Shown here one piece after another: positions 1,709-22,196 of a DNA stretch of 64,000 bases (positions within the stretch are counted from its first letter, which is position 1; every line of letters starts with the position of its first letter). The notes below the pieces were generated by a model, which made no database searches, was not told where the DNA came from, and saw nothing but the letters and a program-made list of their open reading frames with translations. The position numbers and the translations under genes are program-made. Source of the DNA: an uncultured Clostridia bacterium (GTDB lineage Bacteria > Bacillota > Clostridia > TANB77 > CAG-508); contig CAKPFO010000005.1 of the NCBI GenBank assembly GCA_934153805.1, positions 3,537-67,536 of the forward strand, read 5' to 3'.

Positions 1709-2202
1709 AATAAACCTAAAATGTCTAATCTTACGGTCATAGCAGAAACCGAAACATCAAACAATTGAGACAGTTCCGTTATTGTATTATTTTCATTATA
1801 TATCTTTTCTAAAAGGGTTTTATTCATAAGTAAAGCTCCTGCAAAATAGTCTACTTCTTTTTCTCTCTCTTTTTCTTCTTCATTTGGTATTCTAAACATT
1901 ATATCAACATGAACATCATCATTTTCTAAAATATCTTTGTGTAAAAAGAAATGACCTATTTCATGAGCTATTGTAAATCTTTGATTTTCTCTTGTATCAT
2001 TTTCATTAACTAAAATTTCAAATTCATTTGTACTTCTATTATATCTTATTGCTCCAGAAATCTTTTTATCCAAGTTTCCTTTGTATACTTTAATATCATT
2101 TGCTTTTGCAATTCCAATAACATCAACAGGAATTTTATACATATCATTTTTTAATAATATACTAGATGTTAATTCTTCTAAACTTTTATTTATTTTGTTC
2201 AT
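1705..2202 (-). CDS. ImmA/IrrE-family (M78, COG2856-like) zinc metallopeptidase
   Basis: HEXXH motif in FTIAHEIGHFFLH, with the size and layout typical of stand-alone ImmA-like peptidases. No HTH domain is fused. Confidence 0.7.
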   Translation of the reverse strand: MNKINKSLEELTSSILLKNDMYKIPVDVIGIAKANDIKVYKGNLDKKISGAIRYNRSTNEFEILVNENDTRENQRFTIAHEIGHFFLHKDILENDDVHVDIMFRIPNEEEKEREKEVDYFAGALLMNKTLLEKIYNENNTITELSQLFDVSVSAMTVRLDILGLL

Positions 2203-2395
2203 ATAAACTCCTCCCCATTAATATTATTTACTACTATATCATTTATTACACCAACATTATATATTAAAAAATTTAATAAATCAATACTTTTTGTTTTATT
2301 TGTATTTTAGCAATATCCGCCAAAAAATCGGCACCCCACAATCGATTTTAAGGCATTTTTATTTCTTGTTAGAGTAATTATATTCCTTGATTTTC

Positions 2396-2424
2396 TTGAC
2401 TTTTGGAGATTTTTCACGTATAGT
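2396..2424 (+). promoter_or_regulatory. promoter for the plus-strand small ORF
   Basis: TTGACT (2396-2401), a 17-nt spacer, TATAGT (2419-2424), then a GGAGG RBS before the ATG at 2463. Confidence 0.45.
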
Positions 2425-2462
2425 ATCAATAAAGAATTATTAAAAAAAGGAGGCTTTTAGAA

Positions 2463-2729
2463 ATGAAATATGATCCAGAAAAAAATGAACTTACACATTT
2501 GATAAAATATAAAGAAAAAGAATTCAATAAAGAAACATTAATAGATGAATTAAAAAATAGGTTTGATGTAAAATCAATTGAAGATGAAAATAATAATCTT
2601 ATAATTACTTTAAATAATAAAAAAGAATATGTATTCAATTATGATGATTCTATTAATGAAAAAATTAAAATCTATGATGTTTATGAATTAGCTCGTGACT
2701 TACCATTAGCAGACACAAATGATAATTAG
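2463..2729 (+). CDS. small acidic hypothetical protein
   Basis: 88-aa ORF with a strong AAAGGAGG RBS. It is divergent from the ImmA-like gene. Confidence 0.55.
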   Translation: MKYDPEKNELTHLIKYKEKEFNKETLIDELKNRFDVKSIEDENNNLIITLNNKKEYVFNYDDSINEKIKIYDVYELARDLPLADTNDN

Positions 2730-2752
2730 AGCAGTACAATTAAGTACTGCTC

Positions 2753-3307
2753 CTAGCTATATGGATTAATACCATTACAATCTTTTTGATATGCAATTAA
2801 ATATTCAAGTATATCATTATAATTTTTAATTATTTTACCTGTATATGGATTTTGTTTTTCTAATAAATATTCTTCATTTATTTTTTCTTTTCCATCTATA
2901 ATATTTTGTAATCTTATTGGATTATTTATAATGCTATTTAAACTTTCTTTATTTGAGTTATCACTTACTTTTTTAAAATTATTTTCTTGTTTTTCTTTAT
3001 TATCTTTTTTTAATATAGATATAAAAAAGCTAATAATAACCATTAATATTGTTATTATTGTCATTATAAAATTTTCTCCACATAAAGCAATAGTAAAAGA
3101 ACTTAATGGATTTTTATTAGCTATACTAGCTCCTATTGCTAATATACAAGCTAATAATATTGTTGTAGGATTATGACCACTTATAAATATATCAATAAAA
3201 TCGCATATTATTATAGCTATTAATCCTATAATAATGCAAATTAAATTTTCTGTAAAAAAACCATAAACTCCTACAATCGAAAATACTAATTCAATAATTC
3301 CTAACAT
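2753..3307 (-). CDS. membrane protein (about 4 TM) with a soluble C-terminal domain that carries a scaffold-like KQNPYTGK motif
   Basis: The likely start is ATG 3307, after a GGGAGG RBS. The N-terminal half is hydrophobic. The C-terminus reads ...EKQNPYTGKIIKNYNDILEYL. Confidence 0.6.
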   Translation of the reverse strand: MLGIIELVFSIVGVYGFFTENLICIIIGLIAIIICDFIDIFISGHNPTTILLACILAIGASIANKNPLSSFTIALCGENFIMTIITILMVIISFFISILKKDNKEKQENNFKKVSDNSNKESLNSIINNPIRLQNIIDGKEKINEEYLLEKQNPYTGKIIKNYNDILEYLIAYQKDCNGINPYS

Positions 3308-3392
3308 TTCTATACCTCCCATATAATATATATTATACAAGATGTATATTGAAAACTTTGTCGAAACTTGTCATATAATACAAAATATTGTT

Positions 3393-6300
3393 TTAATATT
3401 TATATGTTCCATCTTTATAAAAAGTAACTCCAAACAATTTAAGAACTTCTTTTTGTCTTTCCTCTTTATAATTACTCTTTATGTAGTTAACTACTAATTC
3501 TTTTTGATATTTATTTGATGGTTTACAATCTAGTGCATAAAGAATTAATTTTTGAGTATAAGATGCTCCTTGTATGCTATTTATATAATCAAATCTTTTA
3601 GCACTTCCACTTCCTATTATAGATTTTCCATTTTCTGAGCCATCATCTTTTTTATCTGCATTGAACTTTTCATTGTTTTCTGCTAATTTATATTTTAAAT
3701 ATTTATCAATGTTTAATCCGTCTTCTTTATCTTTAAAAAGGTCTTTTACAATAGAATATTTTTTATCTGTATCAGACAATATATAATTTTCATACAATGT
3801 TTGTTTTTCCTTATTACTATAATTTGAACTAGATAAAACTTCTAATTTTTCTTTATCTTTTTTTAAATCTTTTGTTTTAAATTTATAATCATAATAAGAT
3901 TTTGCACTTACACTATTTAATGTTTCTCTTTTCTTTTTATATTCTTTTGAGTCAATTCCTAATACTTCGTATTTAGCTTTAGAATAAGAATCACTTACTA
4001 TTTCATTAATTGTATTAGCTTTCTGTTCATTATTTAATTTCTTATACTCACTATCTTTCATTAGTGAACTTAGTGAGCTTTCTACATATTTTCCTGAAAT
4101 AGTTTGAAATCTATTTCTTTCCTCTGCATTCATAACGATTTTTTTACCTTTATTGTCTATATAATAAGGTGCTGTTCTAGGAAATATAGTCTTATCTCCT
4201 ACATCTTTATAAATATTATATATTTCTTGACCTACTTCACTTAATTTACCTTTATTTACATTGGATGGATTAAACATTACATTCCATAAACTATTATCTC
4301 CTCCATATTTTTGTATTTGATTTCCTAAAGTATCTACAGAAGCAGGTAATGTTTTACTTAATCCTGGTATTTTTGCTTTAAAAGAATTAACTGCACTTTC
4401 TATTGGTTTATCATATTCAAAAGTTGTCCTTTGAGTTCCGTCTATCATATCTGATATTTGTTTGCTAAATGTTGGAATAGCTCTTGCTGGTAAATTTAAA
4501 ACTTGATTAATTATACCTGAAAAAAATCCATCATTATCATTTAATACTTCATTTATAGATTGCAAGAAAGACTGTTCTAATAAAACACTTCCAGCTGTAT
4601 CCATATTCCCAACAATTCCTTCTAATAAAGCCTTATTTTTATCTTCGGAATTAACAATATTAGTCATTATAGATAGATGGGCTGATACAGGTTGAGCCCA
4701 ATCATAAGTAAATGTTTTATCTCCTATTTTTATTGAATAACTACTTATTCCAAGAGAATTTTTCATAAAATTTTTGACGTCTTTATCTTTATCAGGTTCT
4801 CCTGTTGCAATTCCAGCTTTTGCTAAAGCATATGCTACTACATATAAAAAACTACCTGCTGTTGCTTTTCCTAAATTTTGTACAAATTTATGCTGTAATT
4901 GTGCGGCATATTGTCCTGTTTTTAATGAATTTTTCAATTTTACACCTGATACTAATGTATTTACTAAACCTGCTGGAGAATAATCTACTATAGCTTTAGT
5001 TAAATTAGCTGGAGTCTTTGCAAAAGGTATTAGTATATCCCCAAGTCCATAGCTTAATCCTTTCTTTTTCCCAACTTTTCCATTCAAAGCATTTCTTATA
5101 CTTAAAACTGTTTGAGTATAAGCATTATTATCTTGCCAAGTTCTTTGAAGAGCTTCTGTAGTTGCTATATCTATCATTTCTTGTGTAGGTGTTGTAGCAT
5201 TATTTAGAGCTAATTGATTATTAATAGAATTAGTAAAAGTAGCTTCGTAAAAACCTCTATCTCCCACATCTAATGCAAAAGACAATAAACTATCTACTCT
5301 ATTTAAATTCTTACCTATTAAATTTTTATCACTAAAACTTTTACCCTCTCCTATTTCAAATCTATTACCTTCAATGTTTCTTGTATTTACTCCGTTCTTA
5401 AAATCACTATATGACTCATATATACCTTTTCCGAAACCTTTAGAATAACTCTTTATGTTAAAGTTTCCAGTTGTCCTTACTCCTGTTTTTTTAGATATTA
5501 ATTTATCTATTCCAGTAGAAACACTATCACTAAACATATTTACTGGCATAATAACTGCATTACCTAAAACATTTCTTACTTGTGTCTTTGGATTAAATAA
5601 CATAGAAATTCTCATCCAAGTTTTAACCTTTTGCCCAACATTAGAAGGAAGTTTATCTGTTATTAATTTCTGTATTTTTGCAAGTTCTAATTTTTTATTA
5701 TATCCATCTTCCATAGTTGAAACTTTTTGCATAGTCTCTTTTATAAATTCTGTATCTTGTGGAGTTAAATTAAAATCTTTTGCATTTTTATCAATCCAAG
5801 CTTTAGACTTACCATCTACTAACTTATTGTATGCCTCTGTTAATTCACTTTGAGCATAATAAAACATACCTTCAGGAGTTAATCTTGAAAGTATATTATA
5901 AGCCTGTACTGTTTGACCTGCAGTTGTTCCTATATCTCTCATTTTCTTTGCTACTTCTACAGCACTTTGATAATCTCCTGTATCTTGATATTGTTTTAAA
6001 AGTATCCAACCTTTTGCAACATCTTCAGCATTTGCTGATTTACTTTCTTTACAATACCATTTGTTTACTTCTTGTTGTCCATTTTCTTGTAAACTCTTAT
6101 ATGCTTTTTCTAATGTTTGCTCATTAGTTATTCCTTTATAGTATCTAATATTTTCTTCTTTTCCCATTTGTTGTCTTAAGTCTTCATTTAAAAATTTTGC
6201 ATCTGTAACTATATTAGATAAGAAACTACTCTCTCTATTTCCTTTTACATACTTTTTTATTTTTAGTTTTGGAGTTGTACTCGCATCTTCCATAGTTAGA

Positions 6301-8582
6301 TTTGATATTTCTGTTGGATTTAATGTTTTATCTTTTTGTTTTGTATACTCTCCAGTAGCTAAAGTATTATTTGTTTGTTGAGCTGTAGGCAATGAATTAT
6401 TTTCTATTTTCGATGCAACGCTTTGTGTATTATTTTCCCCATTTTGCATAGAATAGTTAGTAGGTTTGACATTTTCATTTGAAAGTGTTATACTATTAGC
6501 AGTAGCATTACTATTAGTATTGTTACTACCAATATTAGATTCATTTGAATCCAAAAAGTTACTGACTCTTGGCAATTGTAGCCTTGCCTCAGTAACTTTT
6601 TTTATTACACCTCTATCAATATCATACAATAAATTTCCATTTTTTATATTGTCTTGCATAAATTTATCATAATTATTTCTTCCATATGCACTTGTCATGA
6701 CATTAGTATTAATAATAATGTCGTTTACCCTTCCTAAACCATCTATTTTTATGCTTGCAATTATTGGTCTATCTTGTTTGTCTGCTAAATATGTAGTTAA
6801 AACAATACTATCATCCTTAGTATTAGACTTTACAACATCTAATGGATTATTTATTGCTTCTGGTAATTGTTTGACTATATCTTCCCCTAAATTGTGATAA
6901 TTTGCACCTACATATTTACCACTTTCATTCATAATCGTATCTAAATGTTTTTGTGTCATTGTAATTGGTAAATCTGGTAGTCCTATATCTTTTAATACTT
7001 GTGGAGTTTTTCCTAATACTAGCATATCTTTTTTAGGAAATGTTCCATTTTTAACTGCATCTATTTGTTTTGAAAAATTGTTGCTATCCTTTTTTATTTG
7101 CATTGACAATTGATTTTGAGCCGTTTTATTTTCTTGCTGAATAATCTGCTGTGTTTGTATATTATTAGTGCTATTTTCTTGTTTATTTGCATTATCTATT
7201 ATGTCTTGTGCTTCTTGTAATCTTAATTGAGCTTCGTCTTCTTTTATATCTGTTTTTTCTTGCATAAATACATTATTTGTAACTAACTCATTCATTTGTG
7301 CATATTTAGATTTTAATTCGCTAGTTAGTTCTGTATTACTTGGATTTTTCTTTAATTCTTTTTTGATGTCTTCTATGTCTTCGTTCAGTAATTCTGCTTG
7401 CGCTTTTACATCAGTTCTTAATCCTGCTTCATTTATTGCTTGAGCTAAATTAAGTTTGTCATTATTTACTATTTGTCCGACTTCATATGCAGAACTTCCC
7501 ATGCCCATTAGTGAAGCAGAAAGAAAAGCTATTCCAAATTGCTCTCCTACTTCTTCCCAGTTCCATTTTTCACTAAATGTAGCACCTCTTCCATTGCTTA
7601 CTTTGTCTATTGCTTTGTCAAACATTTTGTTTAAAGTATATGACGCAATTTCCTCTGAACCTTCAGCTAAACCTTGTACTCCTGTTCTTACAAGTAATTT
7701 TCCAAATCCTGATGAAATTCTGCTAGAGACTGCATTTGACAAACTTCTATCCCATGAACCAACTGGACCAAATAGACCACTTGCTCTTTCTACTGCTGTT
7801 TCTATTGCACCTTGTCCTAACCCTCTTATCCAAGCTTGCGTATTGGTTACTCCTTCTTTACTATAAGATTCATTTAATCCTCCTGCAGAAGCAGTTGAAA
7901 ACATTAGCCCTGTTCCTATTTTAGATGTTAACGGATTCATCTCAAAGGCCATTAACCCTGTAGAATATCCCATACTAGCTAATGTTTCTTCACTTTTATC
8001 TCCTAAAACAGAATTAGGTCTTAAGTCTTTTTGAATATTATCAAACAATTCCTTATTTCTATCTTCCATTGCCGTTTGTCTTATTCTATTAGCCCAATCT
8101 TTATTTCCAGCCCAGTCAACTATTTGTGCAGCAACATGAGTTCCAATATCAGATGCACCTTCTCCTATTCTTCCAATACCTTCAACAAAACTTGCTCCAG
8201 CATTAGCCAAAGTCGAACCTACTGTTTTTGAAACATCTCCAAATTGATATCCATCATCAAAAGCATTTGACGACTTAACAAAACCGCTAGTATCTTTTAT
8301 TGTTTGTTTTGATACTCCTATATTGCTTATAGTATTTTTATTTTGGTCTGTTTCTAAGTTATTCTGTCTGTAACCATATCTATTACTTGCTGTTGGTAAG
8401 CTTACTGTTTGAGGATTTTCTTTTGAAAAATTTGAATTTATATTATTTATTTGTTCTTTTATTTTAGATTTTCTTTTCTGTTCTTGTTCTTTTTGAATTT
8501 CCTCATTTTTCTTGTAATAATAGACATCCTCATATAATTCATCTTTCTCTAATTTATTTAATTTTGAATAATCAAATCCCAT
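3393..8582 (-). CDS. 1729-aa giant multidomain protein (polyvalent or ejection-type protein)
   Basis: Single uninterrupted ORF. It has a Gly/Ala/Ser-rich hydrophobic N-terminal region, a coiled coil and an N/S/T-rich linker. One segment (MTQKHLDTIMNESGKYVGANYHNLGEDIVKQLPEAINNPLDVV...) resembles, from memory, the Barnase/EndoU/RelE-like PBECR nuclease modules of phage and ICE polyvalent proteins. Confidence 0.6.
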   Translation of the reverse strand: MGFDYSKLNKLEKDELYEDVYYYKKNEEIQKEQEQKRKSKIKEQINNINSNFSKENPQTVSLPTASNRYGYRQNNLETDQNKNTISNIGVSKQTIKDTSGFVKSSNAFDDGYQFGDVSKTVGSTLANAGASFVEGIGRIGEGASDIGTHVAAQIVDWAGNKDWANRIRQTAMEDRNKELFDNIQKDLRPNSVLGDKSEETLASMGYSTGLMAFEMNPLTSKIGTGLMFSTASAGGLNESYSKEGVTNTQAWIRGLGQGAIETAVERASGLFGPVGSWDRSLSNAVSSRISSGFGKLLVRTGVQGLAEGSEEIASYTLNKMFDKAIDKVSNGRGATFSEKWNWEEVGEQFGIAFLSASLMGMGSSAYEVGQIVNNDKLNLAQAINEAGLRTDVKAQAELLNEDIEDIKKELKKNPSNTELTSELKSKYAQMNELVTNNVFMQEKTDIKEDEAQLRLQEAQDIIDNANKQENSTNNIQTQQIIQQENKTAQNQLSMQIKKDSNNFSKQIDAVKNGTFPKKDMLVLGKTPQVLKDIGLPDLPITMTQKHLDTIMNESGKYVGANYHNLGEDIVKQLPEAINNPLDVVKSNTKDDSIVLTTYLADKQDRPIIASIKIDGLGRVNDIIINTNVMTSAYGRNNYDKFMQDNIKNGNLLYDIDRGVIKKVTEARLQLPRVSNFLDSNESNIGSNNTNSNATANSITLSNENVKPTNYSMQNGENNTQSVASKIENNSLPTAQQTNNTLATGEYTKQKDKTLNPTEISNLTMEDASTTPKLKIKKYVKGNRESSFLSNIVTDAKFLNEDLRQQMGKEENIRYYKGITNEQTLEKAYKSLQENGQQEVNKWYCKESKSANAEDVAKGWILLKQYQDTGDYQSAVEVAKKMRDIGTTAGQTVQAYNILSRLTPEGMFYYAQSELTEAYNKLVDGKSKAWIDKNAKDFNLTPQDTEFIKETMQKVSTMEDGYNKKLELAKIQKLITDKLPSNVGQKVKTWMRISMLFNPKTQVRNVLGNAVIMPVNMFSDSVSTGIDKLISKKTGVRTTGNFNIKSYSKGFGKGIYESYSDFKNGVNTRNIEGNRFEIGEGKSFSDKNLIGKNLNRVDSLLSFALDVGDRGFYEATFTNSINNQLALNNATTPTQEMIDIATTEALQRTWQDNNAYTQTVLSIRNALNGKVGKKKGLSYGLGDILIPFAKTPANLTKAIVDYSPAGLVNTLVSGVKLKNSLKTGQYAAQLQHKFVQNLGKATAGSFLYVVAYALAKAGIATGEPDKDKDVKNFMKNSLGISSYSIKIGDKTFTYDWAQPVSAHLSIMTNIVNSEDKNKALLEGIVGNMDTAGSVLLEQSFLQSINEVLNDNDGFFSGIINQVLNLPARAIPTFSKQISDMIDGTQRTTFEYDKPIESAVNSFKAKIPGLSKTLPASVDTLGNQIQKYGGDNSLWNVMFNPSNVNKGKLSEVGQEIYNIYKDVGDKTIFPRTAPYYIDNKGKKIVMNAEERNRFQTISGKYVESSLSSLMKDSEYKKLNNEQKANTINEIVSDSYSKAKYEVLGIDSKEYKKKRETLNSVSAKSYYDYKFKTKDLKKDKEKLEVLSSSNYSNKEKQTLYENYILSDTDKKYSIVKDLFKDKEDGLNIDKYLKYKLAENNEKFNADKKDDGSENGKSIIGSGSAKRFDYINSIQGASYTQKLILYALDCKPSNKYQKELVVNYIKSNYKEERQKEVLKLFGVTFYKDGTYKY

Positions 8583-8592
8583 TTTATCTCCT

Positions 8593-9672
8593 CTAATCTA
8601 AATCTAAATATTTTCTTAAGTCTACTCCTAGATTATTACCCCAATTTAATATTTGTTCATTTGTTGCGTCTGGAGTTATTTGTAAGGTAGCATATCGACC
8701 TGCTGGTGTTTTTACAGCTATTACATCATTAGCTAATTTTGTAACTGTATAACCACTATTGTCTGTAAAGTCCCCTGTACCTGTTGTCGTTTTCTTTGAA
8801 GATGATGAACTACCCGAGCTACTAGCTTTTTTTTTAGCAAGTGCAAATTCTTGTCTCCATTGGTCATCTTCTACTGCATCTCTTTCCTTCTGATAATTAA
8901 AGTTTCTATCGCTTATTAATTTGTTGTAATCGTAATTTGCAAAATTCATATAATTGTTTAGTGCATCTTGATATTTTTGATAAGCTAATTCATTTCCGTA
9001 TTTTTGTAATTCCAATTTAGCATTTTCTACATCAGCTAGCAATTCACTTTCTTTTATTGAATATTGTAAATTAGACTCATTTAATTGCTTATTTATATCA
9101 TTTATTGAATTATCTCTATTTGTTTGCAATGTAGCGAGATTGTTTCCATATGCATTTTCTACATTAGCATATGCACTCCCTACTAATCCACTTGTGTTTA
9201 AACCTGCTTGTGATAACTGTTGTTCTACACTTTTCTTTCCTAACATAGAATTTATATAAGCTTGTCTTGCATTATCATTATATGTTTGCATTACATTATC
9301 CTTTTGTGAATTGATTTGATTAGCTGACAATTCTTTTTTTTGTTGAAGAGCTTGTTTTTGTTGTTCTGCTATTTTTTCATACTGAGCAAGTAATGCTTGG
9401 GTATCATTTCCAGTATTTGCAGTTGCATTTTTAGCATATTCTTCTGCTAATTGTTGAGTTGTTTGAGTAGGTGTAGTATTAGTCTGTTGTACTGGAGCTG
9501 TTGTCTGTGTTGCTTGAGCAGTTTGACCTGGTAAATTTAAACTTTTTCCTGCATAAATTCTATTAGCATTTGTTATATATGGGTTCAACCCCATTAATGT
9601 ATTTACATCTGTATTATATCTTTTAGCAATACCACTTAATGTATCTCCACTTTGTATTGTGTATGTTGACAT
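8593..9672 (-). CDS. LysM-domain protein with Q/T-rich linker and coiled coil
   Basis: N-terminal LysM signature [30 protein letters not shown]...GKSLNLPG, followed by a long coiled-coil region and a poly-Ser tract. Confidence 0.7.
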
Positions 9673-9697
9673 ATTTTCCCTCCTATAAAAAATTAAA

Positions 9698-9715
9698 GGC
9701 AGATTTTACTCTGCC
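9698..9715 (-). terminator. hairpin between the endolysin and LysM genes
   Basis: Stem GGCAGA/TCTGCC with T-rich flanks on both strands. Confidence 0.4.
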
Positions 9716-9721
9716 CTTTTA

Positions 9722-10474
9722 TTATCTTAATTTTCTATTTACTATACTTTGAATAGCATTATAATCATATCCTGCTACAGCTAATTTTTCTTTTCTTGAT
9801 GGATTGTTCCCCCATTTCCCTGCGATTACTTCGTCTGCTATTTCTTCGTTTGATTTTTTATTTGAAGTTTCTTTCTTACCTAGTAAAATTTCATTTACTT
9901 TAGCTTGCACTTCATTATATAGAGAACCTAAAGCTTGTTTTCTTGCTTCTCCTACGCCATATTTTCCTGCTATAACTTCATTCGCTAAATCTACTATTGA
10001 TTTTGTTGTTTGAGGTTCTTTATCTTCAATATTTTCAACTGCGTTAACGATTTCACTTAACGGGAAATTCGTTCCAGGACAACTTGTAGCTAAAATTTCT
10101 CTATGACCTCTTATCCATTTTATATTATGTCTTGATTTAATGTCTTTTATTAAATCAATTATAGCTTGTTTTTGTACCTCTGACATTGATTCTTCATTAA
10201 AGTTACCTTCTGCACAAATTCCTATACTTGTACTATTTACACTAGGACAATGAGCTCCTGCCATATTCTCTGGTCTTCCTCTATATACAGAACCATCTTT
10301 TCTTACATAGTAGTGATATCCTATGCCTGCCCAGCCTTTATTTTTATGATAATTGTGTATCGTTTCAACACTTTGTAGTACAGTTACTCCACTATTATGA
10401 AGAACAATTCCTTCAACTTCTTGCATTTTATTATAATTACTATTAAATTGTAAATTTGTTTCTATTATATTCAT
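9722..10474 (-). CDS. endolysin: N-acetylmuramoyl-L-alanine amidase (Amidase_2/PGRP type) with two CW_7-like repeats
   Basis: Motifs GIVLHNSG, GYHYYV and SCPG are present. The C-terminal repeats are EVIAGKYGVGEARKQAL and EVIAGKWGNNPSRKEKL. It lies directly downstream of the holin. Confidence 0.85.
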   Translation of the reverse strand: MNIIETNLQFNSNYNKMQEVEGIVLHNSGVTVLQSVETIHNYHKNKGWAGIGYHYYVRKDGSVYRGRPENMAGAHCPSVNSTSIGICAEGNFNEESMSEVQKQAIIDLIKDIKSRHNIKWIRGHREILATSCPGTNFPLSEIVNAVENIEDKEPQTTKSIVDLANEVIAGKYGVGEARKQALGSLYNEVQAKVNEILLGKKETSNKKSNEEIADEVIAGKWGNNPSRKEKLAVAGYDYNAIQSIVNRKLR

Positions 10475-10684
10475 TTATTTATCCTCCTTATTATAGTTAT
10501 AATTTGAAATACCTAAACAAGTACCTAAAAATGCGTTAAATGCTGTCGCGATTGTTAGCACAATTTTTGTATAAGGTATATTGCATGTATTTCCTATTAC
10601 TCCGTAAAAAGTTATTAATGCTGGTAAAAATATTAATGTTATCCATTTTAATATATCATACATTTTATTTGACATATCTATCAC
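10475..10684 (-). CDS. holin (phi LC3-like family)
   Basis: 69 aa with two TM segments and the pattern MYDILKWITLIFLPALITFYGVIG. It sits immediately upstream of the endolysin. Confidence 0.75.
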   Translation of the reverse strand: MIDMSNKMYDILKWITLIFLPALITFYGVIGNTCNIPYTKIVLTIATAFNAFLGTCLGISNYNYNKEDK

Positions 10685-11013
10685 TTCCTTTCCTTTAAAA
10701 TAATTAAATCTTCATGTATCTCTTGAAAACCTTTAATTGCTCTTTCATCATGCTGTTTAAATTCACTATTTGTATTATCCATGCTCGTTTTTAACAGATT
10801 TAAACTTTCTGCTATATTTCTGTTAGATGCTGATAGCTCACTTAACAATTTATTGTTAGCTTCCTTTTCTTCTTTTCTCTCTTGTCTTGCTTGCTCTTCT
10901 TTCTCTTTTCTATCTTTTCTGTCATAAAAAAGAAACACAATAAAAAGAACTGCCATTACAACAGTTCCTCCATTATTTAGCAATATATCTATAACATTAT
11001 TTGTTTCTTCCAT
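10681..11013 (-). CDS. single-TM coiled-coil protein in the lysis cassette
   Basis: 110 aa with an N-terminal TM segment (GGTVVMAVLFIVFLF) and a K/E-rich coiled coil. It overlaps both neighbouring genes. Confidence 0.5.
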   Translation of the reverse strand: MEETNNVIDILLNNGGTVVMAVLFIVFLFYDRKDRKEKEEQARQERKEEKEANNKLLSELSASNRNIAESLNLLKTSMDNTNSEFKQHDERAIKGFQEIHEDLIILKERK

Positions 11014-11354: not shown

Positions 11355-11367
11355 AATAATCCCCTTT

Positions 11368-13312
11368 CTATCTGTAACCTAGAACTTTATATACTTTGAA
11401 TGTTGTTGAATGATTAGCATTTAGATAATATACTCCTGTATATCCTCTAGTTATTGATTTTCCTGAAAGTTTTAATTGAAGAAAATTAATATATAAAGTA
11501 TCAGAACACTGCGATATTGTCGCCCAACATTCGCTGTCAGAAGCTCTGGTTTTAATTGTTCCAAGGTCAGTATATATTTCTAAATAATCAAAATTGTTTT
11601 TACTTTTAGTTAAAGTAATTGTTCCTGTTGCACCAGACGAATTATCGTATAAAGTTTCATATGTAGGAATTTGCCCCCAATCAGACCAATTGTTTGTGTT
11701 GTCTCTTAAACTTCTATAAAAAATTTTCCCTCTTTGAGAAGTTCCCGTCCAACCTAAACATAGTTGAGACCCACCATTCCCATTTACATTTAAAATATTT
11801 CCAAATTGTGAAGGATAGCCATTATTATAAGCTGTTTGCATTGTAATTCCGCTGTCCAGCATTATTTCTTCCAGTCTCAGCAGTAATGTTTCCTCTATTT
11901 GCTGTACGGCTTGCTATATCTGCTGTTCCTTCTAAGCCTCCTATAAATTTATTAGATTTTAACCTTCCATTAACATTAATGGTGTTCTTTCCTATGTCTA
12001 TAATAGGAAGTCCTTGAGTTACTATCTTTATATTGCTTTCAGTCATTAGCTTGTCTGCTACTACAAATTCAAACTCATATTCTTGTTGAAAATCAAAGTC
12101 TGTTCCTAATGTTGCGGTATATGTAAAACTATTTTGATTTATAGTTGTAGTTACTGTATTGTAATTGTTCCATGTTCCGCCAGCTAGTCTATATCGCCAT
12201 TTTAATGTCAATGTATTAGTTTCTTTCCCAAAGGAATTATTAAAATAGTTTCCCTTTACTGTTGCATTTATTGTATTTGATGTCGTTGAAGTTCTAGCAA
12301 GTGTTATTTCTGTAAATGCTAATTTTATATATTCTATAAGTGTTTTATTTATAATTATATTAGTCGATAAGTTTCTACTATCTATCGTGGAAATAGTAAA
12401 ATTTCCACTTTCTATTGAATTTAATGTAGCTGTTGCAGATGTACTTGATTTTCCATCTCCACATACTACCTTTTGGCTTTTAATTGTTGCATTATTTTTA
12501 GCAGTAGCTGTAATCACTACTTTTGCATTAGAAAAATACTTAACTAATTTGTTTTTGTCTCCAGTTAATGCAATTGTTGTCGCATTTGTATCTTCTACTG
12601 TTGCAGATACTGTCGGATTACTGTTGATTACAAATGCATTAAATGTACATGTCTTTGTTCCAATTAAAGTATCTCCGTTATAAGTTTCGCAACTGATTGT
12701 TCCTTGACCAATTGTTGTATTTGGAATTTGAGAATAAAAAGAAGTTGGAATTGACCAACCTATACTTGTATCGCTTGTTTTATTCGTTATTGTTCCATTT
12801 AAACTACCAAAAGAGTACTTTAAAGTATGTGTAAAACTTGAACTTGCTCTATTAATATTAATTGTTGTTGAACTTCCTATATTTCCATCTGCGCAGGTTA
12901 CACTAGATGCACGAGGTATTGTTGTTAATGTCATTGTTCCATTTGCACTACCACTATAAGGTCCCCATCCATTACCTTGTGCTAAATCTGGTGAGTTTGC
13001 ACTTACACTTACATTTTTGCTTCCATCCGCGTTATGCGTAACTGTTTTACTTGCTGAACCCAAAGTAACAGTATTATATCCACCTAATTTATAAGCTCCT
13101 GTAGTTATAGTATATTCTGTACCATCTATAGTTATCGTATGTGTGGCACTAACACTTCTTGATGCCAACGTTCCACTATAATTTGTATATATCTTTAATG
13201 TTGCTGTAACTACAGAAGTGTTATTCGCTACGTCAACATTACTTTCAGTTACATCTATATAATATTTATAGTACGATGCTTTATTACTTACACTTCCTAC
13301 AAATTCTGCCAT
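11368..13312 (-). CDS. tail fibre / receptor-binding protein; one product only if a +1 shift occurs at CGG 11851-11849
   Basis: ORFs 11825..13312 and 11368..11862 overlap. Skipping C11851 joins ...ETGRNNAGQ to GITMQTAYNNGYPSQFGNILNVNG.... The body is S/T/N-rich and beta-type. Confidence 0.6.
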
Positions 13313-16906: not shown

Positions 16907-17872
16907 CTAGGCTTTTACACCTGTTTCAACTCTTACTAATGCCATTGGTTGAGTAATAACTGCTGTGAAACAGTTTTTCCAGCCTGCACTAGCTCTTTGA
17001 TTTAATGGGTCATCTGTACCAGCACTTCCGTTTGGTTTTACAATGATTTCTGGTTTACCAGCTCCACCTTCTAGGTCAATACAATCATAAGAGTCTTTTC
17101 CATAAGCATAAGCTATATGTACATCTATTTTTGTTCCTGCTGTTTCAGAACTATCAACAGTTGCAAGATTAGTTGTTTCAAAGAATTTCATTCCATGCAT
17201 TTTTCCTAATTCGCCTTTTACCATTTGTTCTGGTTTAGCATATTTTGAAACATCAACCCATGCACTATCGCTCATTAAATCATAAGCTATATCTGGGTCT
17301 ATTTGCATATGATAAAAACCGTCTGCAAATCTTTTAGCATTTGCATTTTTTAGTTTTCTTACAATTTTCTTAATGTCATCTGCAGTTAAGTTTTTTACTG
17401 TAGCAGATTCTAGCCCAGCTCTTGTTGTTGCTCCACCAGCAAAATATACGTTAGTTCCTTTAGATAATGCAGTTTGGATTCTATTATCTACAACAACTCC
17501 TGCTTCTTCTCCTAATAGTTCAGAAGCTTCTGTTAATACTGGGTCTATTCCAGTCATTTGTATTAAATCAGAAATTACTATGTAATCTCCTTCTTGTGCA
17601 ACTGTTGCTGTTACAGTTGTAATACTTAAATCATTTCCATCAGGTGTTTTACCTTCTGTTAATGATGCAGATGGTGCAGTTAATGAATTAAATTTTCTAA
17701 AATTCATTGTTCTTCCTGCATTTTTAGGTAATTTTTTCTTTCTTGCATCTTTATAGAAATTTAATTGTGGTAATAATCTTTCTAATAGAGTTCTTTCATA
17801 AAAAGTTTTATCCTCTGCTGATAATTGGTTTTGTCCTGAGACATTTGTTATAACTTGTGTTTTTGTAGCCAT
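16907..17872 (-). CDS. major capsid protein (HK97-fold type)
   Basis: 321 aa, directly downstream of the scaffold. The pattern ...NFRKFNSL...LTEGKTP... resembles the N4-gp56-like capsid family as I remember it. Confidence 0.7.
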   Translation of the reverse strand: MATKTQVITNVSGQNQLSAEDKTFYERTLLERLLPQLNFYKDARKKKLPKNAGRTMNFRKFNSLTAPSASLTEGKTPDGNDLSITTVTATVAQEGDYIVISDLIQMTGIDPVLTEASELLGEEAGVVVDNRIQTALSKGTNVYFAGGATTRAGLESATVKNLTADDIKKIVRKLKNANAKRFADGFYHMQIDPDIAYDLMSDSAWVDVSKYAKPEQMVKGELGKMHGMKFFETTNLATVDSSETAGTKIDVHIAYAYGKDSYDCIDLEGGAGKPEIIVKPNGSAGTDDPLNQRASAGWKNCFTAVITQPMALVRVETGVKA

Positions 17873-18829: not shown

Positions 18830-20596
18830 TTATATCGTTGTTTGTTTACCTATATTTTGTGCTGTAGGAGCTGGTGTTTCAGCTTGTCCAATTATTTGCA
18901 TTACATATTGCAATATTTGTGGATTTTGAGCTATCTTTTCGCTTATTTGGGGTGGTAATAGTTTCTTCTTCCTTATTTCTTTAAGCTTTGCTTTAAATGG
19001 CATTGCAGTTTCAGGATATAAATCTATATAGTCATCAAAAGTTATATCTCCTCTTTGTAATGCTTGTTCTAATAAGTTAATACTTAAGCTTTCTGAATAA
19101 GCGCTTCCAGATCCTACATCTATTGTTGTTTCAAAGTCCATGTCTTGATACATTCTTCCATTAAAATTATTTAATTCTTGACCATTTTCATTTTCTACGA
19201 TGTACTCTGTATCAAATGTATAATATGCTTTAAAAAATTGCTCCCACACTTTTGCAATTTTTTCATGGACTCTCCAAAATCTTTTTTGTATATCTTCTAT
19301 AGGAACCTTTGCTTGTGTTTGCAATGCAACTATTGCACTACCACTCATATTTTTTCCTAATACTTCTCCATTGGCTACTTCTGTAGCCCCTGTTACTGTT
19401 CTAGTAACTTCTAGCAATTTATCTGCCATCGTAAGTGGTGTTGTACTAAAGGCTGGAGGATTTAAATATCTAATTCCATCGAAGTTAGGACTATAATCTG
19501 TTATTATTTCTCCAGGTGTATTTGTTATTGTTTTTCCTTGTAAAGCTCTTGGTCTCATCAATACTTTAGGGAATCCCATGTTTTGGCTGGCCATTTGCAT
19601 CATTGCATAATCAAAATTAATTGCTTTTTGAGTAGGAATTAATTGTTCTACTTCTCCTATTCCAAATATACTCTTTTCTCTTTCTTCATGAGAACCAACA
19701 ACTATAGGATATAATGTCATTTTATACTTTGTATGTTCTGCCTTATCTATATCTACTGCTTCTATATCTTCATTAGTCTTATTAGTATCTTCATTTATTT
19801 CAAGTTTTACTTTTTCTGCATCAGGAGTAAGAGGAGTTTCTTCTTGTACTATCATATCTTTTGTACTCTTTATATAATATACTTCTCCATTTTTTCTAAA
19901 GTATCTTGTTAATACTGTTGCATATTCTTCTCCGTCTTGCTCTTCTTCCTCATAATTTTTTTGTCCTTCTTCATCTGATGTAATTAATTCTATTTCTGTT
20001 TTTGATATTCCATTTTTCTCTGCAATTTTCTTTAATGTTTGTACATTTTCTCTGCTTTGTATTATTATCCATTTTTGTTTTTGTTCATCCTTTTGTTTAG
20101 GATTAGCAAAAACTATGTTTAAGCAATCTATAATTTGTCCATTTAAGCCACCATCGAATTTTGCCATCCCAGTTTTACTTTCTTTGTCCCAAAAATAATG
20201 AAATATGTATGTTCCTTTTTTTAAACCGTCTAGTATTGCTCTATCATCTAAATCCTCTTGTTTTATTTCTTTTCTTATATGTGTAGCAAAATTAGTAAAA
20301 GAACTAGCTCCTTGAGTAGCAATTTGTGAAGTTTGCTCGTTATATATAAGTGGTTTATATACTGCAGATATTTTACTTGATAAAATGTTTGCTTTCTTTC
20401 CATTTACAATGAACTTAATTATATTTATAACTGGTCTTGGCATATTCTTTGTTTTTTCTGTTGCTTGTGGCCACTGTCTACCTTCAAAAAAATCTACACA
20501 TGTCTCACAAGTTTCTTTTAACCCTAATTTTCTTTGATAACTTAAACCTTTTTGCCAGTCATCCCATATCTTCCTAGCTAAATCTTCTCTAGTCAT
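18830..20596 (-). CDS. portal protein
   Basis: 588 aa, in the canonical position just downstream of the large terminase. Confidence 0.7.
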   Translation of the reverse strand: MTREDLARKIWDDWQKGLSYQRKLGLKETCETCVDFFEGRQWPQATEKTKNMPRPVINIIKFIVNGKKANILSSKISAVYKPLIYNEQTSQIATQGASSFTNFATHIRKEIKQEDLDDRAILDGLKKGTYIFHYFWDKESKTGMAKFDGGLNGQIIDCLNIVFANPKQKDEQKQKWIIIQSRENVQTLKKIAEKNGISKTEIELITSDEEGQKNYEEEEQDGEEYATVLTRYFRKNGEVYYIKSTKDMIVQEETPLTPDAEKVKLEINEDTNKTNEDIEAVDIDKAEHTKYKMTLYPIVVGSHEEREKSIFGIGEVEQLIPTQKAINFDYAMMQMASQNMGFPKVLMRPRALQGKTITNTPGEIITDYSPNFDGIRYLNPPAFSTTPLTMADKLLEVTRTVTGATEVANGEVLGKNMSGSAIVALQTQAKVPIEDIQKRFWRVHEKIAKVWEQFFKAYYTFDTEYIVENENGQELNNFNGRMYQDMDFETTIDVGSGSAYSESLSINLLEQALQRGDITFDDYIDLYPETAMPFKAKLKEIRKKKLLPPQISEKIAQNPQILQYVMQIIGQAETPAPTAQNIGKQTTI

Positions 20597-20849: not shown

Positions 20850-22196
20850 CTACCACCATATGTCTTCATCCATATCTTCCGTTTGAAGCTCAAATGGTAA
20901 TTCTTGTTTTTTAGCCATAAAAATAGGTTCTTGTGTCCAATAAACACAAAAACCTCTAATTGCATCCACAGAATGAGTTAATTCGTGTGGTTCATTTGCT
21001 ACATCTCCTATTTTCTTTTCATCGTGTTGTATTTGTGGTAAACATCTAATTAAATTTTTACATGTACTAAATATCTTTAATCTTGATGTATCACAACCTT
21101 GCTCGTCCTTATATACTTTTAGCCACTCTTTCATTTGTAGCCAACCTTGTATTCTATCATTATTTGTTTTATATAAGTCTATGCCACCTTCCGCAAATAT
21201 ATCTGCTGTACTCTTACCTGTTTCTTTGTGTCTGTTCCATAAATCTGGTGGTGCTAAATATATATATATACTTTCATTTGTCATTTCTTTTATCTTATCT
21301 CTTGCTTGAGATACTAATAAGTTACTTTGATAAACTTCTCTAAATATATAAGCATTATTGTTATAATCTACAGCTATCCAATAACCTGCCAACATATCTA
21401 ATCCATAATCCATTACAAAATATATATACCAGTCCTTTGGTATTTCAAAAGGTTCTATTACATGTACATCTCTCTTAAATTCTGTAAAGAATTGCCCTTC
21501 AAATATATCCCAATCTCCATAAAGCATTGCTTTTTTTCTGTCTTCTGGCAAACTTTCTAATGCTTTTACATAGTCTGGGTCGTTTTTCATTATGTATTCA
21601 TTCTCATACACTAATGCTGGTATAAACTCATAATCTTCTGGATTTTCATTTTCTGTATAATCTTTATCAATAAATAATCTTTTTACCCATACATGTCCAA
21701 CTCCTCCAGGATTGCAAGTCAAATACATCCTAGGTTTTATTTCTTTCTTACATTGCCCTGACAATCTGTTACTTTCCTTTAAACAGTTAAATTGGAACTC
21801 CGTAAAGTGTGTAGCTTCTTCAATAAATATTGCTTCATATGCTTGTCCTTGATATTGCAATACATCTGCCTCACTATCACAATATCCTAGCTTAATTCTA
21901 CTACTATTTGGAAATACAAATACTTTTTCTTGTGTATTCCATGTCGCCAATTTGTCTTTTTGCTTACTTTTTAATTCTTTCTGTAATGGTATAACATGGT
22001 TTTCTAATAGCTCTCCATAAGTTCTTCTTAAAAGCAATATTTGTATGCCTGGATAATATAATGCTAACAATATTGCTTTTATTCTTGCTACATATGATTT
22101 TCCTCCACCTCTTGCTCCACCATAGCATGTATATTTTGCTTTACTCTTGCAAAATTCCTCTTGCTTTGGATATAAATTTGGCACTTTATATTCCAT
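20850..22196 (-). CDS. terminase large subunit
   Basis: Walker A-like CYGGARGGGKSY near the N-terminus, with the nuclease half following. It overlaps terS by one base. Confidence 0.85.
   Translation of the reverse strand: MEYKVPNLYPKQEEFCKSKAKYTCYGGARGGGKSYVARIKAILLALYYPGIQILLLRRTYGELLENHVIPLQKELKSKQKDKLATWNTQEKVFVFPNSSRIKLGYCDSEADVLQYQGQAYEAIFIEEATHFTEFQFNCLKESNRLSGQCKKEIKPRMYLTCNPGGVGHVWVKRLFIDKDYTENENPEDYEFIPALVYENEYIMKNDPDYVKALESLPEDRKKAMLYGDWDIFEGQFFTEFKRDVHVIEPFEIPKDWYIYFVMDYGLDMLAGYWIAVDYNNNAYIFREVYQSNLLVSQARDKIKEMTNESIYIYLAPPDLWNRHKETGKSTADIFAEGGIDLYKTNNDRIQGWLQMKEWLKVYKDEQGCDTSRLKIFSTCKNLIRCLPQIQHDEKKIGDVANEPHELTHSVDAIRGFCVYWTQEPIFMAKKQELPFELQTEDMDEDIWW

What the first reader, a model, noticed from the sequence alone, without database searches (positions are those of the whole stretch)
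3393..9672. LysM protein plus 1729-aa polyvalent-type giant protein located after the endolysin
In a phage with no tape-measure gene, the largest gene (5.2 kb, about 14 percent of the prophage) lies downstream of the holin-endolysin cassette and of a hairpin at 9698-9715, together with a LysM/coiled-coil protein. The giant protein combines a Gly/Ala-rich hydrophobic N-region, coiled coils, an N/S/T-rich linker and a segment that resembles the PBECR (Barnase/EndoU/RelE-like) nuclease modules described for polyvalent proteins that are injected with DNA to counter host defences. It could be an ejected internal virion protein or an anti-defence delivery protein. The domain content of the C-terminal ~900 aa is unknown to me.
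Basis: partly seen in the sequence, partly recalled or inferred. Interest (0 to 1): 0.62.

Follow-up and report, generated by a model that had tools for sequence, protein, structure and literature searches.

The report
Giant phage ejection protein carrying cargo
The 1,729-residue gene is a "polyvalent" internal virion protein of a short-tailed prophage, most likely packed in the head and injected with the DNA, here carrying a predicted RNase; it belongs to a huge, already described class, not to a new kind of system.

Summary
A 1,729-aa ORF (3393-8582, minus strand) and a 359-aa LysM protein (8593-9672) follow the holin, the amidase endolysin and a terminator-like hairpin. The prophage is podovirus-type and Pagevirus-like, with no tape measure.

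The giant protein is modular:
- a Gly/Ala-rich helical N-region;
- a coiled coil;
- one swappable cargo cassette, Pfam MuF_C, which belongs to the PBECR clade;
- an N/S/T-rich linker;
- a conserved, all-helical C-terminal module of about 1,000 aa with no Pfam family.

That module occurs in about 9,000 protein clusters. Relatives carry other cargo in the same slot, including ART-PolyVal, ParB, SprT, RadC, GNAT and PBECR3.

A profile of the module matches the gp16-position "internal virion protein D" of some T7-like phages. T7 gp16 itself does not match.

In at least 17 related prophages the gene sits inside the virion module, behind a conserved partner gene. The position after the endolysin is a local rearrangement, and the LysM domain is a local addition to the partner.

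A near-identical prophage differs by one cassette, inserted exactly at a conserved linker, which is also a recombination breakpoint.

Verdict: a new member of the known polyvalent or ejection-protein class. Packaging and injection are inferred, not shown.

The parts
3393..8582 (-). Giant gene, 1729 aa (P0001): a polyvalent-type internal virion or ejection protein
   Evidence: Uninterrupted ORF. 1223 homologues among the 8000 candidates scored.
7473..8300 (-). N-region, about residues 95-370. It is Gly/Ala-rich and helical, with moderately hydrophobic segments such as 350-368. It is weakly conserved across the family (25-30% identity).
   Evidence: BLAST map. Helical AF2 model with low pLDDT. 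Hydropathy. Shared with the second giant protein of the same genome, 75 bits.
7050..7448 (-). Long helices or coiled coil, about residues 379-511
   Evidence: AF2 secondary structure, helices H379-412, H417-436, H448-468 and H473-511.
6444..7100 (-). Cargo cassette, about residues 495-713. It holds the MuF_C (PBECR-clade) domain, a predicted RNase.
   Evidence: Pfam PF18819, E 3.1e-16. pLDDT 80-94. H563, T597, S631, Y633, G634 and Y653 are conserved in 43-47 of 48 distinct cassettes. The block q500-721 moves as a unit in homologues.
7101..7115 (-). Upstream junction motif Q-L-S-M-Q (residues 490-494)
   Evidence: One of only two matches to [YLF]S[LIMVQ][QSTDEN] in the protein. The family-wide junction motif is described.
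6444..6458 (-). Downstream junction motif N-Y-S-M-Q (residues 709-713), followed by G-E-N-N-T-Q. This is the site of the cassette insertion or deletion and of the recombination breakpoint relative to L056.
6330..6590 (-). Disordered N/S/T-rich linker, about residues 665-751
   Evidence: pLDDT about 30 and no secondary structure. Sequence.
3396..6329 (-). Conserved C-terminal module, residues 752-1729. It is all alpha-helical and 62-70% identical in the closest hundred homologues. It has no Pfam family.
   Evidence: 8985 representative clusters at E<=1e-3. No Pfam or PDB sequence match.
4308..5165 (-). Core of the C-module, about residues 1140-1425. It includes PFAKTPANL, the hydrophobic helix 1240-1258 and YSIKIGD..F.YDWAQP. 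It is homologous to gp16-position internal virion proteins.
   Evidence: Profile HMM: ProddE internal virion protein D 66.9 bits, MW202801 82.6 bits, NATL2A-133 45.3 bits, shuffled controls at most 3.1 bits. tblastn E 3e-6.
3408..3926 (-). C-terminal tail, about residues 1553-1725. This separate sub-module is shared with an LPD38-type giant protein of the same genome.
   Evidence: 34% identity, E 2e-14. Genome search.
8593..9672 (-). Partner gene, 359 aa (P0002): LysM, a Q/T linker, a conserved helical core, a Ser-rich linker and a small C-terminal domain
   Evidence: An ORF directly upstream of the giant gene belongs to the same family in 24 of 42 loci by phmmer and 37 of 42 by jackhmmer.
9529..9663 (-). 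LysM peptidoglycan-binding domain of the partner (residues 4-48). It is present only in this sub-lineage.
   Evidence: Pfam E 8.7e-13. In alignment A4 only the window, L003 and L022 have it. The closely related prophage L056, which was not part of A4, also has a LysM partner.
9695..9718 (-). Terminator-like hairpin between the endolysin and the partner gene
2728..2753 (-). Terminator-like hairpin (10 pairs) that closes the unit partner - giant - 195-aa gene
   Evidence: No terminator-like site lies between 3393 and 3340.
2753..3340 (-). 195-aa gene downstream of the giant gene. It is probably co-transcribed and has no homologue at this place in the 50 loci from the genome scan (L002-L051).

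Best explanation
The giant gene encodes a polyvalent internal virion (ejection) protein of a Page-like short-tailed prophage.

Shown:
- The protein is a fixed carrier: an N-region, a C-terminal module of about 1000 aa and a C-tail.
- The carrier flanks a slot that holds interchangeable effector cassettes. In this protein the slot holds one MuF_C (PBECR-clade) domain.
- The core of the C-module is homologous to the largest internal core protein (gp16 position) of some T7-like phages.
- The gene and its upstream partner form a conserved pair that normally lies inside the virion-assembly module.
- Cassettes are gained and lost at conserved Y-S-[IM]-Q...E-N-N-[ST]-Q linkers.

Inferred:
- The protein is made late and packed into the capsid through its conserved modules.
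- It is expelled through the portal and tail at infection.
- Its hydrophobic and Gly-rich helices, together with the partner protein, help to extend a conduit through the thick wall and the membrane of the Gram-positive host. The partner is tethered to peptidoglycan by LysM in this lineage.
- The cargo RNase reaches the cytoplasm with the first DNA and cuts host or defence RNAs before any phage gene is expressed.
For: (1) Architecture. BLAST mapping of 119 homologues shows a conserved N-region, a variable middle and a C-terminal ~1000 aa at 49-99% identity.

(2) Cargo repertoire in 22 diverse members: MuF_C, ART-PolyVal, LPD23, LPD3, PBECR3, ParB_N, SprT-like, RadC, GNAT, nucleotidyltransferase, M78 and DUF6782. 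This is the domain vocabulary of polyvalent proteins (PMC5512222).

(3) Synteny. In 17 of the 50 loci from the genome scan the order is vsp611 - (partner) - giant - g335/tail495, with a portal match further upstream in 12 of them and holin or endolysin matches beyond in a few. This is the slot that gp14-16 occupy in T7. Only the window, L003, L022 and the near-identical L056 have the pair at the end of the late genes.

(4) Homology to internal virion proteins. A profile of 117 non-redundant C-modules scores 66.9 bits on ProddE 'internal virion protein D', which follows tail tubular protein B and internal virion proteins B and C. It scores 82.6 bits on a podovirus MAG protein and 45.3 bits on the cyanophage NATL2A-133 internal virion protein. 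Shuffled sequences reach at most 3.1 bits. The signature blocks (PF.KTP.N, the hydrophobic helix, YSIK.GD) are aligned. BFVD fold search also finds an S-CBP2 internal virion protein, E 8e-6, and many polyvalent proteins.

(5) Link to a virion-proven relative. A second giant protein in the same genome shares the N-region (75 bits), the partner family (106 bits) and the C-tail, but has an LPD38 core. LPD38 giants include Page gp20 and phi24B gp47. phi24B gp47 also carries MuF-C and was found in virions by proteomics (bioRxiv 10.64898/2026.04.10.717836).

(6) Cargo. MuF_C scores above the Pfam cut-off, folds confidently and keeps a conserved His and Ser/Thr residues.

(7) Cassette exchange. Against the near-identical prophage L056, DNA identity jumps from 94.7% to 99.7% exactly at the linker. 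There L056 has an extra 795-nt HExxH cassette flanked by AATAATACNCAAA repeats.
Against: - No direct evidence of packaging or ejection exists for this protein or any close relative. No phage in the collection of 50,697 phage records (isolates and metagenome assemblies) carries a close homologue.
- T7 gp16 itself is not detectably similar, so the link is to gp16-position proteins of other Autographiviridae, whose own roles rest on annotation.
- The AF2 models are weak (mean pLDDT 60 and 53), and PDB fold searches gave nothing significant. The BECR fold of the cargo was therefore not confirmed structurally.
- In this window the gene lies behind a terminator-like hairpin after the lysis genes, in moron territory.
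- This copy carries only one recognisable effector domain.
Confidence: 0.75

Rival explanations
1. It is a packaged cargo carrier only. The conserved N- and C-modules are capsid-targeting or anchoring domains, as in phage P1 Dar proteins or T4 internal proteins. They play no part in building a conduit through the envelope, and DNA entry does not depend on the protein.
For: Polyvalent proteins were defined as injected effectors, not channel formers. The hydrophobic segments are few and only moderately hydrophobic, with a maximum Kyte-Doolittle score of 1.33. No lytic domain is fused, unlike T7 gp16.
Against: The gene is universal and keeps a fixed position in the virion module of a podovirus lineage that has no other candidate ejection protein. 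It is homologous to the largest internal core protein of T7-like phages. Its conserved partner carries peptidoglycan-binding domains in some lineages.
Confidence: 0.15
2. It is a non-packaged late or lysogenic effector, a moron at the prophage end. It is expressed in the cell to fight competing phages or to modify the host.
For: It lies after the lysis cassette and a terminator-like hairpin. It is followed by low-GC accessory genes, including an ImmA-like peptidase.
Against: The same pair sits in the middle of the structural module in at least 17 relatives. A strong RBS and only 49 nt separate it from the endolysin, and no convincing promoter is present. Homology to internal virion proteins also argues against it.
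Confidence: 0.05
3. It is an external tail component, a tape-measure-like or needle/fibre protein, with a decayed nuclease domain.
For: It is large, mostly helical and Gly-rich, as tape measures are. BFVD gives weak matches to 'minor tail' and 'tape measure' proteins at E above 0.1.
Against: The prophage has no tube, sheath or chaperone genes, and its capsid and portal are of podovirus type. The cargo residues are conserved. The diverse enzymatic cassettes in relatives make no sense on an external fibre.
Confidence: 0.05

Closest known systems
Polyvalent proteins of phages and conjugative elements (Iyer, Burroughs, Anand, de Souza, Aravind 2017, PMC5512222)
   Same: It is a giant multidomain protein in a late or virion gene context. 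It carries a MuF-C/PBECR domain. Homologues carry ART-PolyVal, ParB, LPD3, LPD23, SprT, RadC and GNAT domains. The architecture is mosaic and cassette-like.
   Different: This copy has a single recognisable effector. The conserved ~1000-aa C-module and the N-region match no Pfam family, LPD families included. That paper does not mention internal virion, gp16 or ejection proteins.
phi24B gp47 (Stx phage, 2811 aa; LPD5, LPD1, LPD38 and MuF-C), found in virions by proteomics and proposed as an ejection protein (bioRxiv 10.64898/2026.04.10.717836)
   Same: Podovirus host phage, giant size and a MuF-C domain. tblastn links residues 521-672 to the Stx-phage homologues. It has the same proposed role.
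   Different: P0001 has no LPD5, LPD1 or LPD38. Similarity is limited to the MuF_C cassette. The host is Gram-negative.
Bacillus phage Page gp20 (1679 aa, LPD38) with gp19 (NlpC/P60 + SLT)
   Same: The capsid lineage is related (MCP 42% identical). It is a giant gene next to the lysis cassette, preceded by a cell-wall-directed partner.
   Different: No sequence similarity to P0001 by BLAST, hhalign or HMM. The Page partner is enzymatic, whereas the partner here only binds peptidoglycan.
Internal virion protein D (gp16 position) of Autographiviridae: Desulfovibrio phage ProddE, cyanophages NATL2A-133 and S-CBP2, pelagiphages
   Same: The core is homologous over about 300-380 residues, including the PF.KTP.N block, a hydrophobic helix and YSIK.GD. 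The slot in the gene order is the same in most relatives.
   Different: Those proteins carry no effector cassettes. T7 gp16 itself does not match. There is no lytic transglycosylase domain here.
N4 virion RNA polymerase and P1 DarB
   Same: They are giant proteins packed in the head and ejected with the DNA, with enzymatic activity fused to carrier regions.
   Different: The enzymatic content is different and no sequence similarity was detected.

Membership tests
Polyvalent proteins (Iyer et al. 2017) | Contains signature domains of the class (PBECR, ART-PolyVal, LPDs, DdrB-ParB and others) | tested here: met
   MuF_C PF18819, E 3.1e-16. Homologues carry ART-PolyVal, LPD23, LPD3, PBECR3 and ParB_N.
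Polyvalent proteins (Iyer et al. 2017) | Two or more domains of disparate biochemical activity in one polypeptide | tested here: inconclusive
   Only one enzymatic domain is recognisable in P0001. Orthologues have several: P0038 has RadC, ART-PolyVal, GNAT and ParB, and L056 has MuF_C plus an HExxH cassette.
Polyvalent proteins (Iyer et al. 2017) | Encoded with virion or late genes of a phage, or with the transfer genes of a conjugative element | tested here: met
   It lies at the end of the late genes here and inside the structural module in at least 17 relatives.
Polyvalent proteins (Iyer et al. 2017) | Packaged and delivered into the host with the DNA | not testable with these tools
   This needs virion proteomics or an ejection assay. 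The only indirect support is phi24B gp47.
PBECR / MuF_C nuclease domain | Profile match above the curated threshold | tested here: met
   59.8 bits against a cut-off of 27.6.
PBECR / MuF_C nuclease domain | Conserved His near the N-terminal helix and an alcoholic residue (S/T) in a late strand | tested here: met
   H563 is conserved in 43 of 48 cassettes, S631 in 45 of 48 and T597 in 44 of 48. In the model S631 lies in strand 622-634 and H563 just before helix 567-571. Their assignment as catalytic residues is inferred.
PBECR / MuF_C nuclease domain | BECR fold confirmed by structure comparison | tested here: inconclusive
   The PDB Foldseek search with the 760-aa model gave no match at E<=0.001. 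The domain was not searched on its own.
T7 gp16-type internal core / ejectosome protein | Sequence homology to T7 gp16 | tested here: not met
   The C-module profile scores -3.5 bits on T7 gp16. A PDB sequence search gave no hit.
T7 gp16-type internal core / ejectosome protein | Homology to gp16-position proteins of other Autographiviridae | tested here: met
   ProddE 66.9 bits, NATL2A-133 45.3 bits, shuffled controls at most 3.1 bits.
T7 gp16-type internal core / ejectosome protein | Gene lies between the tail-tube genes and the fibre genes | tested here: inconclusive
   Not in this window, where it follows the endolysin. It does in 17 related loci.
T7 gp16-type internal core / ejectosome protein | N-terminal lytic transglycosylase domain | tested here: not met
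   No SLT or lysozyme match. The only wall-related element is the LysM domain on the partner.
LPD38-type giant virion proteins (Page gp20, phi24B gp47) | LPD38 domain (PF18857) | tested here: not met
   P0001 has no match at E<=0.1, and none was found in 22 family members. The second giant protein of the same genome has LPD38 and shares the N-region and C-tail.
Tape measure protein | Long-tailed phage with tube and chaperone genes flanking the gene | tested here: not met
   No such genes are present, and the capsid is Pagevirus-like.

The most novel reading that the evidence does not exclude
The unnamed C-terminal module of about 1000 aa (at least 8,985 clusters, no Pfam family) would be the Gram-positive-host counterpart of the T7-type ejectosome subunit, working with the conserved partner protein. 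The conserved Y-S-[IM]-Q...E-N-N-[ST]-Q linkers would have two roles: joints for recombinational cassette exchange, for which there is DNA evidence here, and proteolytic release sites that free the cargo domains after injection.
Probability: 0.25. Interest if true: 0.6.

Novelty: new member of a known kind. Interest (0 to 1): 0.35.

Why it matters
How short-tailed phages get DNA and early effectors across a thick Gram-positive wall is poorly understood. This family is very common in gut Clostridia and Bacilli prophages. It offers a defined carrier with a plug-in slot for effectors such as RNases, ADP-ribosyltransferases, ParB nucleases and peptidases.

The sequence link between the carrier core and the gp16-position internal proteins of T7-like phages ties the bioinformatic class of 'polyvalent proteins' to the experimentally studied ejection machinery. 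It also marks a large domain family that still has no name. The cassette joint seen here shows how the cargo repertoire turns over between near-identical prophages.

For annotation, thousands of 'hypothetical' giant proteins could be labelled.

Tried and rejected
- PHROGs, NCBIfam, and PDB sequence and profile searches gave nothing for the giant protein. The only hits were low-complexity artefacts such as huntingtin poly-Q.
- Foldseek against PDB, for both AF2 models, returned only generic alpha-solenoid noise.
- Direct comparison with Page gp20 by BLASTP, hhalign and HMM showed no detectable similarity, although the position is analogous. A protein comparison with the alignment failed.
- T7 gp14, gp15 and gp16 do not match the C-module profile. 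The partner and N-region profiles do not match the Page ORFs or the internal-protein gene regions of T7, ProddE, NATL2A-133 and MW202801 that were fetched.
- tblastn with a distant Paenibacillus member found no phage record with a convincing homologue: only MW202801 at E 7e-4 and two short hits in unrelated proteins.
- A search for attachment-site repeats found nothing convincing. The left prophage end is inferred only from L056, where agrB follows the 185-aa gene.
- The junction motif count within P0001 alone, two matches, is what chance predicts (my estimate is about 2). Only the family-wide placement and the DNA breakpoint give it meaning.
- A tape-measure reading was rejected, as set out in the membership test.
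Full report
**Observation**

The window has a G+C content of about 28%. All the genes discussed lie on the minus strand.

ORF listing confirms a 1729-aa ORF at 3393..8582 and a 359-aa ORF at 8593..9672, ten bases apart. Directly upstream are an Amidase_2-type endolysin (9722..10474) and a holin (10475..10684).

Between the endolysin stop and the 359-aa gene lies a 9-bp stem, a 6-nt loop and a T-run. It scores as an intrinsic-terminator-like site and is followed by a strong AGGAGG ribosome-binding site. A second such site, at 2728-2753, follows the 195-aa gene downstream of the giant gene. Partner, giant and the 195-aa gene therefore look like one unit.

**The phage**

The structural genes are, in order:
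- terminase, 20850..22196;
- portal, 18830..20596;
- a 284-aa scaffold-like gene;
- the major capsid protein, 16907..17872;
- a 143-aa gene;
- a 611-aa virion structural protein ('vsp611' below);
- a 335-aa gene ('g335' below);
- a 495-aa tail protein ('tail495' below);
- a 164-aa fibre piece.

The capsid protein is 42% identical to those of the Bacillus megaterium podophages Page, Pony and Pookie. No tube, chaperone or tape-measure gene is present.

The host genome is a 1.57-Mb MAG, 83% complete.

**Anatomy of the giant protein**

Pfam finds one domain, MuF_C (PF18819), at residues 561-653, E 3.1e-16. Iyer et al. 2017 place MuF-C in their phage-BECR (PBECR) clade of predicted RNases.

AlphaFold2 was run with family alignments. 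The results by region are:
- Residues 46-365: helical, low confidence.
- Residues 379-511: long helices.
- Residues ~495-660: a confidently folded alpha/beta domain, pLDDT 80-94.
- Residues 665-751: a disordered N/S/T linker.
- Residues 752-1729: almost purely helical. pLDDT is 70-90 in the first (about 790-980) and last (about 1450-1729) parts and below 50 in the middle.

Hydropathy shows only moderate peaks. The strongest is at 1240-1258 (ATAGSFLYVVAYALAKAGI), and it is nearly invariant in the family.

**Family and modularity**

A search of 5.8 billion proteins gave 1223 homologues among the 8000 candidates scored. Mapping the 119 listed homologues onto P0001 gives this picture:
- The C-terminal ~1000 aa is conserved at 49-99% identity.
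- The N-region, about residues 95-370, is conserved at 25-30%.
- The middle differs from protein to protein.

The C-module alone finds 8985 clusters (50% identity representatives) at E<=1e-3 and 3341 at E<=1e-30 among 1.84 billion representatives. Nearly always it sits at the C-terminus of proteins of 1400-3200 aa. It has no Pfam, NCBIfam, PHROG or PDB sequence match.

Scanning 22 diverse members against Pfam gives the cargo repertoire: MuF_C, ART-PolyVal, LPD23, LPD3, PBECR3, ParB_N, SprT-like, RadC, GNAT, nucleotidyltransferases, Peptidase_M78 and DUF6782. This is the vocabulary of 'polyvalent proteins' (PMC5512222).

**What the C-module is**

tblastn against 50,697 phage genomes gave weak but repeated hits to proteins annotated 'internal virion protein (D)' in T7-like phages. 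These are Desulfovibrio phage ProddE (E 3e-6), pelagiphages and cyanophage NATL2A-133.

I built a profile from 117 non-redundant C-modules, which included 25%-identical Paenibacillus, Cohnella and Oscillospiraceae members from the genome scan. The scores were:

| Target | Bits |
|---|---|
| 1121-aa protein of a podovirus MAG (MW202801) | 82.6 |
| ProddE internal virion protein D | 66.9 |
| NATL2A-133 internal virion protein | 45.3 |
| 180 shuffled controls (maximum) | 3.1 |

The alignments cover the family's signature blocks: PFAKTPANL, the hydrophobic helix followed by GE, and YSIKIGDxxFxY.

In ProddE this protein follows tail tubular protein B and internal virion proteins B and C. That is the gp16 slot.

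T7 gp16 itself does not match, and neither ProddE's protein nor the C-module profile finds T7 gp16 in the PDB.

Foldseek against predicted viral structures returned 31 hits at E<=1e-3. These are mostly metagenomic proteins labelled MuF-C, PolyVal ART, LPD3, LPD38 or nuclease, plus an internal virion protein of Synechococcus phage S-CBP2. TM-scores are low because the models are floppy, so I treat this only as support.

**Genomic context in relatives**

A scan of 185,579 species genomes returned 50 loci. They come from gut Clostridia, Bacilli and 'Tenericutes' MAGs, Christensenella, Paenibacillus and Cohnella.

tblastn with the window's proteins gave three results:
- In 17 loci the order is vsp611 - giant - g335/tail495. 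A portal match lies further upstream in 12 of them, and holin or endolysin matches lie beyond the tail genes in a few.
- In many more loci vsp611 lies upstream of the giant gene.
- Only in the window, L003 and L022 does tail495 come before the pair. The near-identical prophage L056 shows the window's arrangement too.

The giant gene is therefore normally embedded in the virion module, where T7 keeps gp14-16. Its place after the endolysin is a rearrangement in one sub-lineage.

**The partner**

In 42 of 43 loci an ORF ends within a few bases of the giant gene's start. The LysM-less part of P0002 finds 24 of these directly and 37 after iteration.

The alignment shows a conserved helical core with a near-invariant G..SG motif, QKE-rich repeats, a Ser-rich linker and a variable end.

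In that alignment LysM is present only in the window, L003 and L022; L056, which was not in the alignment, has a LysM partner too. One distant member, L043, has what looks by eye like a PG_binding-type N-terminus; I did not scan it.

The pair 'partner plus giant' is the conserved unit, and the wall-binding domains are lineage-specific additions. Page has an analogous arrangement: gp19 (NlpC/P60 + SLT) followed by gp20 (1679 aa, LPD38), next to its lysis genes.

**A second giant protein in the same genome**

Contig C13 carries another podovirus-type module. Its genes are:
- a 193-aa gene similar to the window's 143-aa gene;
- a 627-aa homologue of the 611-aa protein (E 5e-65);
- a 180-aa gene;
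- a partner-family gene (106 bits);
- a 2517-aa giant.

This giant shares P0001's N-region (75 bits) and C-tail (34% identity over about 180 aa). Between them it has LPD23, a zincin and an LPD38-type core.

The N-region, the partner and the C-tail are thus common to two core types. LPD38 giants include phi24B gp47, which also carries MuF-C. It was detected in purified virions by proteomics and proposed as an ejection protein. This is the nearest thing to experimental support.

**Cargo state**

In 48 distinct MuF_C cassettes of the family (20-94% identity), H563, T597, D601, N627, S631, Y633, G634 and Y653 are conserved in 43-47 sequences. This is compatible with the His plus Ser/Thr configuration described for active PBECR domains. 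I could not confirm the BECR fold by structure search.

**Cassette borders**

P0001 has two matches to [YLF]-S-[LIMVQ]-[QSTDEN]: QLSMQ at 490-494 and NYSMQ at 709-713. They bracket the cassette. Two matches is what chance predicts for one protein.

Across the family, however, the motif recurs as N-V-N-T-T-K-Y-S-[IM]-Q-E-S-E-N-N and D-I-R-Y-S-Q-N-N-x-T-W-Q-S-Y-L. It piles up in the 100 residues before the C-module and is almost absent from the first ~500 residues of the C-module, though it recurs in its distal part. An earlier agent of this scan saw the same motif in another genome.

New evidence here comes from the near-identical prophage L056:
- It matches window 1-6406 at 99.7% DNA identity but window 6422-8314 at only 94.7%.
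- It carries an extra 795-nt cassette with a HEFLH motif exactly between those two stretches.
- That cassette is flanked by AATAATACNCAAA (N-N-T-Q) on both sides, while the window has one copy.

The linker is thus a real recombination joint. Whether it is also a cleavage site is open.

**Mechanism**

Shown: the modular carrier, the interchangeable cargo, homology of the core to gp16-slot proteins, the conserved pairing and position, and cassette exchange at the linkers.

Inferred:
- late synthesis and packaging into the capsid;
- ejection through the tail at infection;
- help from the Gly-rich and hydrophobic helices, and from the partner, in bridging wall and membrane;
- early action of the RNase cargo on host or defence RNAs.

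I put 0.75 on the packaged and ejected reading overall, and about 0.5 on the cargo being an active RNase used for takeover or counter-defence. I rank three rival readings lower: carrier without a conduit role, non-packaged moron, and external tail protein.

**Novelty**

This is a new member of a known kind. Several sister windows of this scan hold the same family. Three details add something:
- the huge unnamed C-module and its tie to T7-like internal core proteins, which the 2017 paper does not mention;
- the conserved partner family;
- the DNA-level view of cassette turnover.

Noticed in passing
L057 (G000 contig C13, 10000-27716), giant ORF at 4176-11729: The same genome has a second podovirus-type structural module. 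It holds a 2517-aa giant protein (LPD23, a DUF6782/SprT zincin and LPD38) that shares only the N-region and the C-terminal tail with the window's giant protein. A partner-family gene of 289 aa and a 627-aa homologue of the 611-aa virion protein lie upstream.
   Followed up: partly
window 1-8314 versus L056: A near-identical prophage from another sample is 99.7% identical over window 1-6406 but only about 94% identical over 6422-8314 and 8926-12000. The partner-gene region 8314-8926 is too diverged for megablast. The prophage is therefore a recent mosaic with a breakpoint in the giant gene's linker.
   Followed up: yes
window 2802-2893 and 18385-18476: A 92-nt stretch in the 195-aa gene downstream of the giant gene is 71% identical to a stretch of the scaffold-like gene.
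   Followed up: no
window 3393-9672: Neither gene contains a CGG codon. In the giant gene all 44 Arg codons are AGA or AGG, and the partner gene has one CGA and eight AGA. Other notes on this genome propose CGG-linked +1 shifts, for example joining 11825..13312 to 11368..11862. The giant gene gives no test of that idea.
   Followed up: no
L019 and L038 (contig CALVKK010000001.1, 40861-63275 and 4696-27110): Two copies of the same prophage structural region lie about 36 kb apart on one MAG contig, with identical tblastn coordinates. This is either a tandem double lysogen or an assembly duplication.
   Followed up: no
L047-L050 (Paenibacillus and Cohnella prophages): In the distant members the C-module is split into three blocks, roughly query residues 60-205, 200-555 and 555-800 of the 1000-aa C-module query. 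The first two blocks are separated by inserts of about 150-325 residues, and the second and third by only 20-30 residues. The 'constant' module can therefore also take insertions.
   Followed up: no
L056 17215-17871; window 1-240: In the near-identical prophage an AgrB-like gene follows the 185-aa gene. The left prophage end therefore probably lies at or just beyond the start of the window. No att repeat was found.
   Followed up: partly
L029 (Candidatus Gastranaerophilales MAG) and L023, L025, L039, L042 ('Tenericutes/Mollicutes' MAGs): Close homologues, with 52-63% identical C-modules, turn up in MAGs assigned to very different phyla. This could reflect a broad host range or binning of phage contigs into the wrong MAGs.
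   Followed up: no
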